IMG/VR virus record: IMGVR_UViG_3300037804_000222
Span: 26,772 to 90,771 of that record
Origin: a virus
Reading direction: 5' to 3' (one strand)
DNA: 64,000 bases
The notes under the pieces were generated by a model. It was not told the origin of the DNA. It worked only from the letters and a program-made list of their open reading frames with translations, and did no database searches. The stretch's first letter is position 1. The number at the start of each line of letters is the position of its first letter. Below, piece by piece: positions 11,290-20,376 of the stretch. The position numbers and the translations under genes are program-made.

Positions 11290-11460
11290 TTTCACCTATA
11301 TTTCGCCAAACCCACCTACTATAGAAAGTTATGGCAGGTTATAACCTGATAAAATGTTCGTGAACGTACGGCTATAGCCTGATGAGATTGTTCAGTGGAC
11401 TGAACAATTGTCCAGTTTTTTGATTAATAAACTGGACATTTGTCGCTTTTTTTGCGACAG
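11290..11460. repeat. array of heterogeneous short palindromes, block 1
   Basis: CAGGTTATAACCTG (11335-48), GTTC-GT-GAAC, GGCTATAGCC, ATTGTTCAGT-GG-ACTGAACAAT (11387-408), TGTCCAGTTT-N10-AAACTGGACA (11409-38), TGTCGC-T7-GCGACA (11441-59). Confidence 0.85.
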
Positions 11461-11461
11461 T

Positions 11462-11625
11462 TGGCTGTAGGAGAAGGATTCGAACCTCCACGTAGTAGTT
11501 AGCTAAAGGACAGATTTTAACCAGGGCGCTGCGCAGCTTGGTGGTCAATCCCATTATCCTTAGTTTATCCTATAATCTACACCCCCGAGACAGGAGGGTA
11601 TGTCTGCCAATTTCATCACCCTACA
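11462..11625 (-). tRNA. atypical tRNA-like RNA, GTC (Asp) anticodon, 92-nt variable arm
   Basis: Acceptor TGTAGGG/TCCTACA + G-CCA; class-II-type D arm ATG-AAATTGGCAGA-CAT; anticodon arm CCCTC-CTGTCTC-GGGGG; T arm GGAGG-TTCGAAT-CCTTC. Confidence 0.8.
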
Positions 11626-11629
11626 TTAA

Positions 11630-11990
11630 ATTTGTACGTATTCCGTACATATATAGGTTTTCCTTTTTGTTAACGTCAACAAAATGGTTTACTCCGTCAG
11701 TTGCTCCGTCAACAAAAGGGTTTACTTATAGTTACAAATGTAAACAACTTAGTATAACTTTTAACTATACTTAAAACTTATTGCTCTATTCCCCAAATAA
11801 ACGGTTTTTCTGCGATTGTAATCACCAAATAACCGAAAATGAAGCTCAAGCTAACCTTAATTGTGTCTCATATTTGATACAAAATGAGCTTTATTGGTGC
11901 AAATATGCACCACATCTGCACCACATTAGGTTTGTTTTGTTACAGTTTGACAATCATTTTACCCTTGTTTTGATACACAAACAAGTTTGA
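11630..11990. repeat. array of heterogeneous palindromes and short tandem repeats, block 2
   Basis: TGTACG-TATTC-CGTACA (11633-49), TTTTGTT-AACGTC-AACAAAA (11665-84), CTCCGTCA x2 at 12-bp period (11692/11704), GTTTAC-N14-GTAAAC, AGTATA-N9-TATACT, TGGTGCA-AATA-TGCACCA (11895-912), TGCACCACAT x2, CTTGTTT-N8-AAACAAG. Confidence 0.8.
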
Positions 11991-12248
11991 TTAGAATCTT
12001 TTTACATTATCAGACAATGACTCTATGAAATTATTTACGCTATCGTACAGCTTTTTCTTTTTCTGCTCTACTTCTGCACATCTTTTTTGGTAATAGGTTA
12101 TAGCTTCAACGTAAGCATCTTGCTCTGTTTCTGCTCCCATAGATAAGTTCATTCCTCTTGTTTCATCATACAACCAATAGCCATCCTTACACTCTGATAT
12201 AGTTAGGCTATCTGTTAGTTTTATGTTACTTATTGCTTTACTTGCCAT
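11991..12248 (-). CDS. hypothetical protein embedded in the palindrome array
   Basis: 85-aa ORF with an A-rich leader; GYWLYDETRGMNLSM motif. Confidence 0.7.
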   Translation of the reverse strand: MASKAISNIKLTDSLTISECKDGYWLYDETRGMNLSMGAETEQDAYVEAITYYQKRCAEVEQKKKKLYDSVNNFIESLSDNVKRF

Positions 12249-12259
12249 TTTATTTAGCT

Positions 12260-12561
12260 TTTAGTATGTACCAATTTGGTACATAATTAAGTGGTATGTC
12301 GGGATTTCCGACTAGTTCAATCTTAGTAAAATGTCCCAATTATTACCTATTTTCGGTACTTCTGGCGAATTTTTACTAAGATTCTTGATTCGCGAATTGC
12401 AAATTAATCTACAAGAATCACAATATAATATGAATTGTGCATGATTTGTCATGCGTTAACCCCATAAACGGTACTTAATGTATGAGAACTCATACAATAA
12501 TGTGATTTTCGTAGTATTTATATGTAGAAACATACAACTGGTGATGATTTGTCACTGGTTG
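12260..12561. repeat. array of heterogeneous palindromes, block 3
   Basis: TATGTACCAA-T-TTGGTACATA (12265-85), GTCGG-GATTT-CCGAC (12298-312), AATCTTAGTAAAA/TTTTACTAAGATT (12319-31/12371-83), TTGATTCGCGAATTGCAAATTAA, GCATGA-TTTG-TCATGC, TGTATGAG-AA-CTCATACA (12479-96), AACTGGTGA-N7-TCACTGGTT (12536-60). Confidence 0.85.
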
Positions 12562-13056
12562 CTACATACTAGTTTCTATCCAAAGTCCTAAAGCGGTTCC
12601 TAATAAAAAGACAAGAAAGAAAACAAATACAATAAAAATAACTCTAGATTCGTTTATTCCCTCATTTGTTCCCTCATTTAATCCCTCACTTATTCCCTCA
12701 TTTGGTTTTTTATACGCTTCTTTTGGAGTTAAAGGTTTTTTAAAAATATCCTCATTTGTTCCCTTACGTAGTATCCCAGCTGTTTCACATAGCTTCAGGA
12801 ACTTATTATACTCGCCATCTTTATTGATAGTGTTAGGTGTTTGGGAATCGCCTGTATCTATTTCGCCAAATACTGATGTATTTATAACGACAACCTCCCC
12901 CATATTACGTTGGTAATGTTCTTCTAAGTCTACAAAGGATTCTCCACATTTGCAATAATCCATTGACCATCTTTTAGCGCTATCGGATTGCTGAATACTA
13001 TCACAGTACCCACATCTCCATTCCAGTAGTGTTCTCATGTTTTCTTTTTTAAGCAA
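12562..13056 (-). CDS. mosaic protein: Zn-ribbon N-terminus, NEG(I/L/T) 12-bp repeats, C-terminal TM helix
   Basis: CGYC...CKCG; NEGISEGLNEGTNEGIN; VIFIVFVFFLVFLLGTALGLWI. Confidence 0.6.
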   Translation of the reverse strand: MLKKENMRTLLEWRCGYCDSIQQSDSAKRWSMDYCKCGESFVDLEEHYQRNMGEVVVINTSVFGEIDTGDSQTPNTINKDGEYNKFLKLCETAGILRKGTNEDIFKKPLTPKEAYKKPNEGISEGLNEGTNEGINESRVIFIVFVFFLVFLLGTALGLWIETSM

Positions 13057-13299: not shown

Positions 13300-13450
13300 A
13301 GTTAAGTTGTAAGTAATCCTTACAAGTTGATCAAAAGCGAAGCCTGAATAAGACATCTCCTACCCAGAACTTTACTTTTGATGCTGATTTTACCTAAGCT
13401 CCCCAGCTTAGGATTTCTTACCTATTGATTCTCATTAATAGGATTTTCAC
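13300..13450 (-). ncRNA. structured non-coding segment (4-5 hairpins)
   Basis: CCTATT/AATAGG, CCTAAGCT-GGGG-AGCTTAGG, ATCAAAAG/CTTTTGAT enclosing CTGGGTAGGA-GATG-TCTTATTCAG (G-U pairs favour minus strand), TTGTAAG/CTTACAA. Confidence 0.55.
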
Positions 13451-13483
13451 TGTTTGCCCAACTCACGCTTGGTACTCTCGTTG

Positions 13484-13620
13484 TCAAAGAGGCAGGAGTC
13501 GAACCTGCATGAAGGACATCACAGCCTTTATGTGGACTTTTACCACTTCCGAATTACCAAGACTCAGTTAATTACTCCGCTTCTTTAGAAATTCTGCGTT
13601 TACCGTTTCGCCACTCCTTG
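13484..13620 (-). ncRNA. tRNA-like RNA (Leu-type body) with expanded anticodon and variable arms
   Basis: Acceptor CAAGGAG/CTCTTTG + A73; TG-GCG-AAACGGTAAA-CGC D arm; GCAGG-TTCGACT-CCTGC T arm; GAATT/AATTC stem encloses 34 nt instead of 7. Confidence 0.75.
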
Positions 13621-20056: not shown

Positions 20057-20278
20057 CTATGCCCATATGATTCCGCCATCTGCGATGGTGCTAATCTCAG
20101 GCACTTCAGTGCCTTTAGCAAATTCGTCGCTACAGTCGCCTTCTAGGCGGATGAAGCAAGTATTTGCATTGGTAGAGACCACTCGGTCTTTACCAAGAAT
20201 TTTGCGAGTTTCGAACCCGCTTAAACCTACGACAGTTTGACCGTCTTTAACTTGAACCCAAAAACATTTAGTTTTCAT
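20057..20278 (-). CDS. hypothetical early protein
   Basis: 73 aa, own terminator, higher GC. Confidence 0.65.
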   Translation of the reverse strand: MKTKCFWVQVKDGQTVVGLSGFETRKILGKDRVVSTNANTCFIRLEGDCSDEFAKGTEVPEISTIADGGIIWA

Positions 20279-20376
20279 AATGTAGCAAAATTTAGTTAGG
20301 GGGCATTAGTGCCCAAAACTTAGAGGGGGTGGGGTTATATAAGTGGTCTACTCTCTCATTTCCGTAAACAAAATTT

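What the first reader, a model, noticed from the sequence alone, without database searches (positions are those of the whole stretch)
11290..12710. Candidate operator-decoy/self-mimic array: about 25 different DNA sites resembling in-gene sites of RhuM, ORF6N, Bro-N, DinD and Fic/AlbA-wHTH proteins
Seen: about 1.3 kb packed end to end with non-identical 14-25-bp palindromes and 11-12-bp tandem repeats, with no common repeat unit. Read as codons, several give short peptides: TVAKKAT (11441-61, minus), FVNVNKMV (11666-89), VDGATDGV (11690-713, minus), MYQFGT (12266-83), VCRDFRLVQ (12294-320), PVTNHHQL (12535-58, minus) and NEGISEGLNEGTNEGIN (about 12651-701, minus). From memory, not searched, these match hypervariable motifs inside genes of the RhuM (TVAKNAT, VCRNFR), DinD (HFVDVNKMV), ORF6N (CQFGT), Bro-N (VTNCHQL) and Fic/AlbA-wHTH (4-aa tandem repeat) families, which are common in Bacteroidota defence and mobile islands. 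Inference: the phage has collected a library of binding sites for host or prophage DNA-binding proteins that recognise their own genes. When amplified during replication the sites could sequester those proteins. One possibility is keeping DNA-tethered toxins or sensors bound after host chromosome degradation. This would be a repeat-less, DNA-only counter-defence cassette.
Basis: partly seen in the sequence, partly recalled or inferred. Interest (0 to 1): 0.92.

Follow-up and report, generated by a model that had tools for sequence, protein, structure and literature searches.

The report
Hairpin-rich phage island, few mimic sites
The supposed 25-site DNA decoy array is really a patchwork of a new tRNA-like RNA gene with its terminator hairpins, a conserved regulatory block, one small gene and the end of another, but three or four of its palindromes do resemble the palindromes written inside bacterial RhuM/ORF6N defence-island genes.

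Summary
The window is part of a 90.8-kb, crAss-like-organised phage. Coordinates 11290-12710 lie in its leftward replication operon.

Palindrome enrichment is real. There are 7 perfect inverted repeats with arms of 7 bp or more, against 1.2 in shuffles. That is also three times the density of the phage's other non-coding DNA.

The stretch is not one array. It contains:
- a 161-nt tRNA-like RNA (11465-11625, minus strand), supported by covariation and followed by RNA terminator hairpins;
- a conserved non-coding block with phased short repeats;
- a real gene, ORF85;
- the coding NEG repeat at the end of ORF164.

Related phages gain and lose these modules as whole units.

I found them in sampled RhuM and ORF6N genes of the bacterial class of G001. 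Covariance models built only from those bacterial sites place their best hits of the 64-kb window at 12259-12291, 12532-12564 and 13300-13332. A weak hit falls at 12298-12312. The sites in 11290-11990 do not score.

The core of the 13300 site occurs in 61 IMG/VR contigs, often in tandem with other RhuM-type dyads. Two of these are complete phages without a RhuM gene.

The scan had already noted in-gene palindromes on other DNA. A decoy function is untested.

The parts
11335..11461 (-). 3' trailer of the tRNA-like gene. Small palindromes lie at 11370-11379 and 11335-11348.
   Evidence: T1 sits 3 nt after the encoded CCA. It is kept at the same place in L012, L020 and L059. In L059, T1 and T2 keep pairing only through G-U on the minus (transcribed) strand, so they act as RNA hairpins, not DNA dyads.
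11465..11625 (-). 161-nt tRNA-like RNA. It has a 7-bp acceptor stem (U1-A72, G2-C71, U3-A70), discriminator G73, a Leu-like D arm, an anticodon-type arm with loop CUGUCUC (GUC, U37, C38), a T arm with loop TTCGAAT, and a branched variable arm of about 90 nt.
   Evidence: On 31 homologues (A4), 97.7% of cells are paired and 18 of 32 pairs show changes on both sides; 0/500 shuffles reach this. Homologues occur in a 636-kb phage and other IMG/VR contigs and in chromosomes of Pedobacter, Chitinophagaceae and others. ARAGORN does not call it and Rfam has no match. The bacterial hosts also have a normal tRNA-Asp.
11633..11726 (-). Upstream control region of the RNA gene: hairpin 11633-11649, dyad 11662-11687, and two 20-nt direct repeats 33 bp apart (11674-11693 and 11707-11726).
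   Evidence: the repeats are unique in the genome. The 33 nt around the dyad are 100% identical in L010, while the flanks differ.
11646..11979 (.). Conserved non-coding block with phased short repeats: CCGTTTATTTGGGG-like boxes 32 bp apart (11787-11835), three TGGTGCA boxes at 11-bp spacing (11895-11923), and hairpin 11964-11985.
   Evidence: 79% identical to L010/L046/L119 over 334 nt, with no frame favoured in tblastx. The middle TGGTGCA box is flipped in L010, and the TGGTGCA-TATT-TGCACCA dyad recurs upstream of the ORF85 homologue in L385/L386. The boxes are local, not genome-wide promoter motifs.
11991..12248 (-). ORF85, a conserved small phage protein of unknown function.
   Evidence: phrog_19040, E 2.9e-27. 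98 homologous protein clusters, mostly marine, aligned in A7. The cassette, roughly 11980-12440 by BLAST (junction alignment suggests about 12010-12400), is absent from L010/L119, where its two flanks are contiguous.
12259..12320 (.). Two adjacent dyads in the 5' region of ORF85. S1 lies at 12259-12291 (perfect 10-bp arms, 1-nt spacer, 12265-12285). S2 lies at 12290-12320 (GTCGG-GATTT-CCGAC with the flank AGTTCAA).
   Evidence: S1: RhuM-site model R1 gives 18.6 bits, E 0.024. ORF6N-site model R2 gives 19.6 bits, E 0.077, its top hit, with the next hit at 12 bits. S2: top or second-best PWM hit of the whole genome; R1 gives only 11.9 bits, E 1.8. Neither dyad is kept upstream of ORF85 homologues in 24 other phages.
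12441..12564 (.). Conserved 120-nt block after ORF164, with dyad 12479-12496 and the imperfect dyad S3 (12532-12564; core 12535-12561) directly after the stop codon.
   Evidence: 82% identical to L010/L119. S3 is the best R1 hit in the window (20 bits, E 0.01), and its syntenic copy scores in L010/L119.
12562..13056 (-). ORF164, with a Cys-rich N-terminus and a hydrophobic C-terminus. The 12-nt tandem repeat at 12650-12709 encodes the (NEG-x) repeats.
   Evidence: Translation; repeat. Homologous coding sequence is 85-91% identical in L012, L020 and L089, and the repeat is also present in L010.
13300..13332 (.). S4, a RhuM-type dyad (TTGTAAG-GATTA-CTTACAA). It lies 590 bp outside the finding, after a terminator-like hairpin (13343-13368) and before the next small ORF.
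   Evidence: 18/19 identical to RhuM in-gene sites, against a null maximum of 15-16 in 30 shuffled genomes. R1 gives 17.8 bits, E 0.041. It is identical in L089, L364 and L373 and absent from L012, L020 and L119. Its 19-mer pattern occurs in 61 IMG/VR contigs.

Best explanation
The interval is the most plastic part of the phage's leftward replication/early operon. It is a mosaic of separate modules, not a single array.

Read in the direction of transcription (minus strand), the modules are:
1. the end of ORF164, with a coding tandem repeat;
2. a conserved 120-nt block beginning with a dyad;
3. an inserted cassette carrying ORF85, with two dyads in its 5' region;
4. a conserved 330-nt non-coding block with helically phased short repeats. 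These are most simply binding sites for the phage's own DNA-binding proteins, regulatory or origin-like;
5. a 161-nt tRNA-like RNA gene with a strictly conserved dyad/repeat region upstream and three RNA hairpins downstream that end the transcript.

Palindromes are dense because terminators, control sites and a structured-RNA gene are packed into 1 kb of the only 4.9 kb of non-coding DNA that this phage has.

Shown: the modules, their independent gain and loss in relatives, the RNA structure, the RNA-level conservation of the terminator hairpins, and the coding status of ORF85 and of the repeat.

Inferred: that the phased repeats and dyads bind proteins, and which proteins.

Three dyads here (S1, S3, weakly S2) and a fourth at 13300-13332 share the grammar of palindromes found inside RhuM/ORF6N genes. 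They sit at gene boundaries. I read them as protein-binding boundary or operator elements of exchangeable cassettes. Their ligand is unknown.
For: Context: DnaB-like helicase, DUF932, SF2 helicase and PolA genes flank the island, all on the minus strand.

RNA gene: covariation; homologues.

Terminator hairpins: same position in three relatives, with G-U-only preservation on the transcribed strand.

Modular gain and loss:
- L010/L119 lack the ORF85 cassette.
- L012/L020 lack about 11637-12650 and about 11637-12858 respectively.
- L015/16/19 run from the RNA gene straight to 13257.
- The cassette is flanked by partly duplicated sequence.

ORF85 is real.

The repeats are local and phased at 11, 32 and 33 bp. 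One box changes orientation between relatives, which fits DNA sites.

Dyads S1-S4 sit after a stop codon or terminator, or before a start codon.
Against: - No DNA-binding protein of the phage has been tied to any repeat.
- No promoter consensus, sigma-70 or Bacteroidota type, is enriched, so transcription units are inferred from gene order and hairpins only.
- Palindrome density exceeds that of the phage's other non-coding DNA threefold. 'It is just intergenic DNA' is therefore not a full account.
- The resemblance of S1, S3 and S4 to defence-gene palindromes is not predicted by an ordinary-operator reading, unless the phage or host regulator belongs to that protein class. None was detected in the phage.
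Confidence: 0.62

Rival explanations
1. Restricted decoy or mimic reading. The three or four RhuM/ORF6N-type dyads (S1, S2, S3, S4), not the whole interval, are orphan copies of the palindromes that host RhuM/ORF6N-type defence-island proteins carry in their own genes. Once the phage replicates, the copies bind or distract those proteins, or their transcripts pair with the host mRNAs.
For: - In-gene palindromes were verified in the sampled bacterial genes.
- Models built from bacterial sites alone put their best window hits on S3, S1 and S4, with three hits at E <= 0.041 where about 0.04 is expected. S1 is the top hit of the ORF6N model.
- S4 is 18/19 identical to a RhuM site, beyond 30/30 null genomes.
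- The same 19-mer pattern occurs in 61 viral contigs where about 1 is expected by my estimate. None lies in a RhuM-like frame among the 31 loci whose site my script read, on the plus strand.
- 26 contigs have 2-4 different RhuM-type dyads in tandem, with RhuM-like flanks.
- Two complete phage genomes with such arrays lack any RhuM gene.
- S3 and S4 are conserved in relatives.
Against: - No binding has been shown for any protein, not even for RhuM or ORF6N on their own sites.
- The host of this phage is unknown, so no allele match can be tested.
- E-values are rough and individually marginal.
- By nearest-neighbour identity, S1 and S2 equal the null.
- S3 is an imperfect dyad.
- The window has single scattered sites rather than a tandem array, and all sit at positions where ordinary operators or terminators also sit.
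- The arrays in other phages lie right after strong terminators, which also fits a boundary or termination role.
Confidence: 0.15
2. The conserved non-coding block 11646-11979 is the phage's replication origin. Its phased repeats would be iterons for an initiator encoded in the surrounding replication module.
For: - It lies within the replication gene cluster.
- It holds three different repeat sets phased at 11, 32 and 33 bp, all unique in the genome.
- The 18-bp repeats have internal dyad symmetry, like lambda iterons (own knowledge).
- It is 66-71% A+T.
- Conservation is non-coding.
Against: - Cumulative GC skew follows gene orientation only and shows no turn here.
- The block is absent from several related phages that keep the same replication genes (L012, L020, L015/16/19). 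That is unexpected for an essential origin.
- No initiator has been identified.
Confidence: 0.12
3. One reading: the whole 1.3 kb is a repeat-less DNA-only library of about 25 binding sites for RhuM, ORF6N, Bro-N, DinD and Fic/AlbA proteins.
For: Palindrome enrichment. A subset of sites is family-like.
Against: - 40% of the interval is an RNA gene, a protein gene and a coding repeat.
- The sites in 11290-11990 do not score with either site model.
- T1 and T2 are RNA hairpins.
- Relatives exchange whole modules, not sites.
Confidence: 0.03
4. The dyads are recombination junctions. Short shared palindromes at cassette ends would promote the modular exchange seen among relatives, as with the promoter/stem-loop cassettes of T4-type phages. 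Their likeness to RhuM/ORF6N sites would reflect DNA exchange with defence islands.
For: - Module borders fall at or next to dyads: 11964-11985, 12532-12564, 13300-13332 and 11633-11649.
- The ORF85 cassette is flanked by partly duplicated TGT-rich sequence.
- Array units in other phages carry RhuM coding flanks.
Against: The borders are mapped only to about 10-30 bp. S1 and S2 lie inside a cassette, not at its edge. No recombinase has been linked.
Confidence: 0.08

Closest known systems
Hyperplastic regions of large lytic phages, with mobile promoter/stem-loop cassettes (T4-type PeSLs) and 'moron' units (own knowledge)
   Same: Small genes, each with its own short control and terminator sequences, are gained and lost as units between relatives at one hotspot inside an otherwise syntenic module.
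   Different: Here the hotspot also holds structured RNA genes. The short elements are diverse dyads rather than one repeated promoter-stem-loop.
In-gene palindromes of RhuM (PF13310) and ORF6N (PF10543) genes. These were noted earlier by this scan. I found no description in the papers searched.
   Same: S1, S3 and S4 (weakly S2) share the dyad grammar: flanks CA[AG][CT]T..A[AG][CT]TG, variable complementary arms and an A/T-rich odd spacer. They score best in the window with models built from the bacterial sites.
   Different: They are intergenic, in a phage that has no such gene. S3 is imperfect.
RNA anti-CRISPRs: solitary CRISPR-repeat mimics carried by phages (own knowledge: Camara-Wilpert et al., Nature 2023)
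   Same: The logic would be the same if the decoy reading is true. A phage carries orphan copies of a nucleic-acid element that belongs to a host immune locus.
   Different: That mechanism is demonstrated and acts as RNA on Cas proteins. Here no binding, no defence phenotype and no host are known.
Class II tRNAs (Leu/Ser/Tyr) and non-canonical allo-tRNAs (PMC5389517)
   Same: Full cloverleaf with 7/5 acceptor/T stems, a tRNA-Leu-like D arm, G73, and a long variable arm starting at the usual position.
   Different: The variable arm is 70-110 nt and branched, with invariant internal loops. Position 37 is U, and the first pair is U1-A72. tRNA finders and Rfam miss it. The bacteria that carry it also have an ordinary tRNA-Asp(GUC).
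Iteron-type origins such as ori-lambda (own knowledge)
   Same: Phased 18-20-bp repeats with internal dyad symmetry, in A+T-rich DNA, inside a replication module.
   Different: There are only two or three copies of each repeat, no identified initiator and no skew signal. The block is missing from close relatives.

Membership tests
RhuM/ORF6N-type in-gene palindrome (site class) | Dyad with complementary variable arms, an odd A/T-rich spacer and conserved outer flanks, scored by a covariance model built from bacterial in-gene sites | tested here: met
   R1: 12532-12564 scores 20 bits (E 0.01), 12259-12291 scores 18.6 (0.024) and 13300-13332 scores 17.8 (0.041); all other hits have E>1. R2: 12259-12288 scores 19.6 bits and the rest score <=12. 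This holds for these three sites only; 12298-12312 is weak (E 1.8).
RhuM/ORF6N-type in-gene palindrome (site class) | Lies inside the coding sequence of a RhuM or ORF6N gene, at the conserved codon position | tested here: not met
   The sites are intergenic. Six-frame searches of the phage with PF13310, PF10543 and PF02498 find nothing at E<=10.
RhuM/ORF6N-type in-gene palindrome (site class) | Near-identity to a known allele, beyond chance | tested here: inconclusive
   13307-13325 is 18/19 identical, against a null maximum of 16. 12266-12284 and 12296-12314 are 15/19, equal to the null. The library was small (17 and 19 sites).
Protein-sequestering DNA decoy | Binding of a host defence protein to the sites, and a phage benefit from it | not testable with these tools
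   There is no host assignment and no binding or infection data.
tRNA (Rfam RF00005 / ARAGORN) | Cloverleaf helices kept by covariation | tested here: met
   Acceptor, D, anticodon and T helices are 96.8-100% paired, with changes on both sides.
tRNA (Rfam RF00005 / ARAGORN) | Recognised by the family model or gene finder; variable region of at most about 25 nt; purine at position 37 | tested here: not met
   No RF00005 hit at 11465-11625, even at E<=10. ARAGORN is negative in the window and in 8 homologous loci. The variable arm is 70-110 nt, and U37 is present in all 31 sequences.
tRNA (Rfam RF00005 / ARAGORN) | Aminoacylation and use in decoding | not testable with these tools
   G73, G34-U35-C36, C38 and G2-C71 are present. 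From my own knowledge these are E. coli AspRS identity elements. This is a lead only.
Intrinsic terminator | Stable stem directly after a gene, followed by a T run, and kept at RNA level | tested here: inconclusive
   T1 and T2 keep pairing through G-U in L059. T1 has an A7 loop and no following T run, and the consensus scan does not call T1, T2 or T3.
Iteron-type replication origin | Several phased direct repeats beside an A+T-rich unwinding region and an initiator gene; strand-skew switch | tested here: inconclusive
   Phased repeats are present. There is no skew switch, no identified initiator, and the block is absent from relatives.

The most novel reading that the evidence does not exclude
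Phages carry orphan copies of the hypervariable palindromes that RhuM- and ORF6N-type defence-island genes hold inside their own coding sequence. This phage has single copies (S1, S3, S4, perhaps S2). Others, including complete phage genomes without such genes, have tandem arrays of different alleles. The copies act against those systems, as DNA decoys, as RNA hairpin mimics, or as hijacked operators that switch phage genes on when the host protein is present.
Probability: 0.15. Interest if true: 0.85.

Novelty: new variant of a known kind. Interest (0 to 1): 0.55.

Why it matters
If only the ordinary reading holds, the value lies in the annotation. The island is one of the few non-coding stretches of a crAss-like-organised marine phage. 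It shows how RNA genes and small genes are swapped as cassettes.

Two parts go further.

It is shared by chromosomes of Pedobacter, Chitinophagaceae and other Bacteroidota, and by phages from about 90 kb to 636 kb. It has a complete cloverleaf, an Asp-type anticodon loop and a large conserved extra domain. Its role is open: special-purpose charging, a decoy for tRNA-directed enzymes, or a scaffold for a binding domain.

Second, dyads with the grammar of RhuM/ORF6N in-gene palindromes occur in phage intergenic DNA, here and as arrays elsewhere. This makes the function of those palindromes, and of these poorly understood defence-island genes, directly testable with a handful of binding and plasmid experiments.

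Tried and rejected
- GC and AT skew follow gene orientation only, so they give no origin signal.
- Sigma-70-type promoter scan found 7 sites against 11.7 expected. The Bacteroidota -7/-33 motifs are almost absent. My eye-read TTGACG-N18-TATATA upstream of the RNA gene is not called by the scan, so I do not rely on it.
- Simple PWMs of the in-gene sites blur the variable arms. The ORF6N PWM misses S1. I replaced the PWMs with covariance models.
- Nearest-neighbour identity supports only S4.
- Bro-N: 1 of 101 genomes had a strong match, too few to build a site model. DinD and Fic/AlbA were not tested.
- ORF85 homologues in 24 other phages do not keep S1/S2 upstream, so these are not a conserved ORF85 operator.
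- The rIIB-like gene (L412:839-1846, minus) has an in-gene palindrome with the same TGTACC half-site as S1. Two of about 40 palindromes sharing a hexamer has p of about 0.2, so I treat it as chance.
- The three mechanical ORFs 11372-11554(-), 11538-11774(+) and 11781-11990(+) were rejected as genes. The first two overlap the RNA gene, and tblastx shows no favoured frame.
- A tmRNA reading of the tRNA-like RNA was rejected: ARAGORN is negative, it is too short, and it has a full D and anticodon arm.
- A first tRNA-Asp pattern used the wrong spacing and found nothing. It was corrected.
- A single-sequence search for ORF85 loci failed. The alignment-based search worked.
So there are no expression data.
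- Loci from the unpublished genome G099 (L287, L306) were left out of all site sets.
Full report
**Setting**

The window is bases 26772-90771 of a 90,771-bp IMG/VR phage record judged 97% complete. The standard genetic code fits it. Gene order is as follows:
- giant proteins on the plus strand;
- a minus-strand block with rIIA/rIIB-like genes, primase, DnaB-like helicase, DUF932, SF2 helicase and PolA;
- a plus-strand structural block with terminase, portal and major head protein.

The finding (11290-12710) lies inside the minus-strand block. Only 4.9 kb of the genome is non-coding. Of that, 1.0 kb lies in the finding and 0.75 kb just beyond it.

**The observation**

Repeats are truly dense.
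- The repeat finder reports 16 inverted pairs and 6 direct families.
- Perfect inverted repeats with arms of 7 bp or more number 7, against 1.2 in dinucleotide shuffles (0 of 200 shuffles reach 7). The interval ranks in the top 0.4% of genome windows.
- Its non-coding DNA holds 6.9 such repeats per kb, against 2.3 in the phage's other non-coding DNA.

The enrichment is therefore real and is more than an effect of being intergenic. The count of about 25 needs relaxed matches. The stretch is neither one array nor DNA-only.

**What the pieces are**

(a) 11465-11625 (minus strand) is a 161-nt tRNA-like RNA. I first saw a T arm and acceptor stem by eye. A 636-kb phage record then matched exactly this stretch.

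Pattern scans brought more than 200 homologues from viral contigs, metagenomes and Bacteroidota chromosomes, among them Pedobacter, Chitinophagaceae and Cytophagaceae.

On 31 diverse sequences:
- the acceptor, D, anticodon, T and two variable-arm helices are 97.7% paired;
- 18 of 32 pairs change on both sides, and many G-U pairs occur;
- no shuffle or slid control comes close.

All sequences share U1-A72, G2-C71, U3-A70 and G73. The anticodon loop is YUGUCUC in 30 of 31 and CCGUCUC in one. All also share invariant loops in a variable arm of 70-110 nt.

Rfam and ARAGORN miss the RNA. Pedobacter carries a short and a long copy in tandem. The bacteria also have a normal tRNA-Asp, so this is an additional RNA of unknown role.

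(b) 11387-11461 holds three hairpins directly after that RNA. In relative L059, two of the hairpins keep pairing only through G-U on the transcribed strand. This marks them as RNA hairpins.

(c) 11633-11726 holds a hairpin, a dyad and two 20-nt direct repeats 33 bp apart. The 33 nt around the dyad are identical in L010, while the flanks vary.

(d) 11646-11979 is a non-coding block, 79% identical to L010/L046/L119. No reading frame is favoured. It holds boxes phased at 11 and 32 bp that occur nowhere else in the genome. One TGGTGCA box is flipped in L010. The TGGTGCA-TATT-TGCACCA dyad recurs elsewhere in L385/L386. This behaviour fits DNA binding sites.

(e) 11991-12248 is ORF85, a real and widespread small protein.

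(f) 12562-13056 is ORF164.

**Comparison with relatives**

Relatives exchange whole modules.
- L010/L119 lack the ORF85 cassette, and the cassette's two flanks are joined there.
- L012 and L020 lack roughly 11637-12650 and 11637-12858.
- L015/16/19 pass from the RNA gene straight to 13257.
- The intron-like tRNA at 13484-13620 is precisely absent from L012/L020.
- The ORF85 cassette is flanked by partly duplicated sequence.

This is modular exchange of cassettes. It is not gain and loss of 20-bp sites.

I expected the remembered family motifs to be chance. They are not entirely.

I sampled 200 genomes of the bacterial class of G001.
- 50 have RhuM. Of the 19 RhuM genes I could anchor, 17 carry a perfect palindrome (arms 5-15, odd spacer) at the same codons. 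The arms differ between genes but are always complementary. The other two show weak or off-pattern dyads and were left out of the model.
- 86 have ORF6N. Nineteen of 29 examined ORF6N genes carry a palindrome with arms of 6 or more at the same position, with arms up to 17.

Earlier notes of this scan describe the same thing on other DNA. I found no paper on it. One paper only places RhuM and dinD-domain genes inside type I restriction-modification loci.

I then asked whether the phage's sites belong to that class.
- Six-frame searches with the RhuM, ORF6N and Bro-N profiles find nothing.
- By nearest-neighbour identity, only 13307-13325 stands out. It is 18/19 identical, against a null maximum of 16. 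It lies 590 bp outside the finding. 12266-12284 and 12296-12314 reach 15/19, which is the null level.

Covariance models handle variable complementary arms properly and give a clearer answer. Model R1 was built from 17 bacterial RhuM sites only and run without filters on the 64-kb window. Its results:
- three hits, at 12532-12564 (E 0.01), 12259-12291 (0.024) and 13300-13332 (0.041);
- everything else above E 1, including 12298-12312 (E 1.8).

In 94 kb of related and unrelated loci, only the syntenic copies of two of these sites score. Model R2, built from 18 ORF6N sites, has 12259-12288 as a clear top hit at 19.6 bits; the rest score 12 or less. Other perfect palindromes of the window, and its other non-coding regions, do not score. 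The models are therefore not merely finding hairpins.

The sites in 11290-11990 do not score with either model.

**Other phages**

The core of the 13300 site (TTGTAAGGATWWCTTACAA) occurs in 61 IMG/VR contigs. My rough estimate is that about one is expected by chance.
- None lies in a RhuM-like frame among the 31 loci whose site my script read, on the plus strand.
- It is usually extended to GAAC...GTTC and often follows a terminator.
- In 26 contigs it has one to three different RhuM-type dyads beside it, each with RhuM-like coding flanks.
- Two complete phage genomes with such arrays have no RhuM gene.
- Their neighbours are ordinary phage genes: a CHAP-domain protein, HTH proteins, a methylase and, in one case, a Tad2-like gene.

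This window has a few scattered ones.

**Verdict**

The best-supported account is a mosaic island of an RNA gene, its terminators, a conserved binding-site block, a small-gene cassette and a gene end (confidence about 0.6).

Inside it and just beyond it, three or four dyads share the grammar of defence-gene palindromes and sit at gene boundaries. Their function is open. I give a decoy, mimic or hijacked-operator role about 0.15, an origin role for the conserved block about 0.12, and the original 25-site library about 0.03.

Nothing here shows binding, and the host is unknown.

Noticed in passing
L035:380-780 (minus strand); also L146, L206 and many Pedobacter loci: In Pedobacter chromosomes the tRNA-like RNA comes as two tandem genes. 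One is short (about 108 nt): its variable arm keeps the conserved internal loops, but the distal domain is replaced by a CC-GUAA-GG hairpin. The other is long (about 148 nt). Both have the UUGUCUC loop. Neighbouring genes (AsnC- and LacI-type regulators, RRF, UMP kinase) give no functional hint.
   Followed up: partly
window 13484-13620 (minus): A tRNA is found by Rfam only (33.4 bits). It has a 68-nt insertion in the anticodon region, possibly with a CUA anticodon, and an enlarged variable region. It is precisely absent from L012/L020, where 13481 abuts 13619, so it behaves as an inserted cassette.
   Followed up: partly
window 13370-13481 (minus): A 112-nt non-coding block is 93-96% identical in L012, L020 and L119, although the flanks diverge. 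It is followed by a different terminator-like hairpin in each lineage. It is a candidate structured RNA.
   Followed up: no
window 20197-20292 (minus): ARAGORN calls a 96-nt tRNA-SeC with anticodon UCA. The standard code fits the genome, so its role (opal suppressor or a non-canonical tRNA) is open.
   Followed up: no
L327, L328, L330, L334, L346, L348, L353, L357, L360, L362 and others (IMG/VR contigs): These contigs carry tandem arrays of two to four different RhuM-type dyads with RhuM-like coding flanks, in intergenic DNA and often directly after an intrinsic terminator. The arrays are present in two complete phage genomes that have no RhuM gene. In L348 the array lies at the start of a Tad2-like (Thoeris anti-defence) gene.
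   Followed up: partly
L412:839-1846 (minus); site at window -189 to -173: The rIIB-like gene contains a perfect in-gene palindrome, TGTACC-TTTAA-GGTACA, with the same half-site and spacing as dyad S1 upstream of ORF85. By my estimate this could be chance (p about 0.2).
   Followed up: partly
window 11991-12248; hits H2-H5: The ORF85 family occurs in marine phages of about 85-91 kb. It also occurs, at 74-75% DNA identity over 92 nt, in Escherichia phages phAPEC8 and nepoznato. The family is therefore shared across very different host groups.
   Followed up: no
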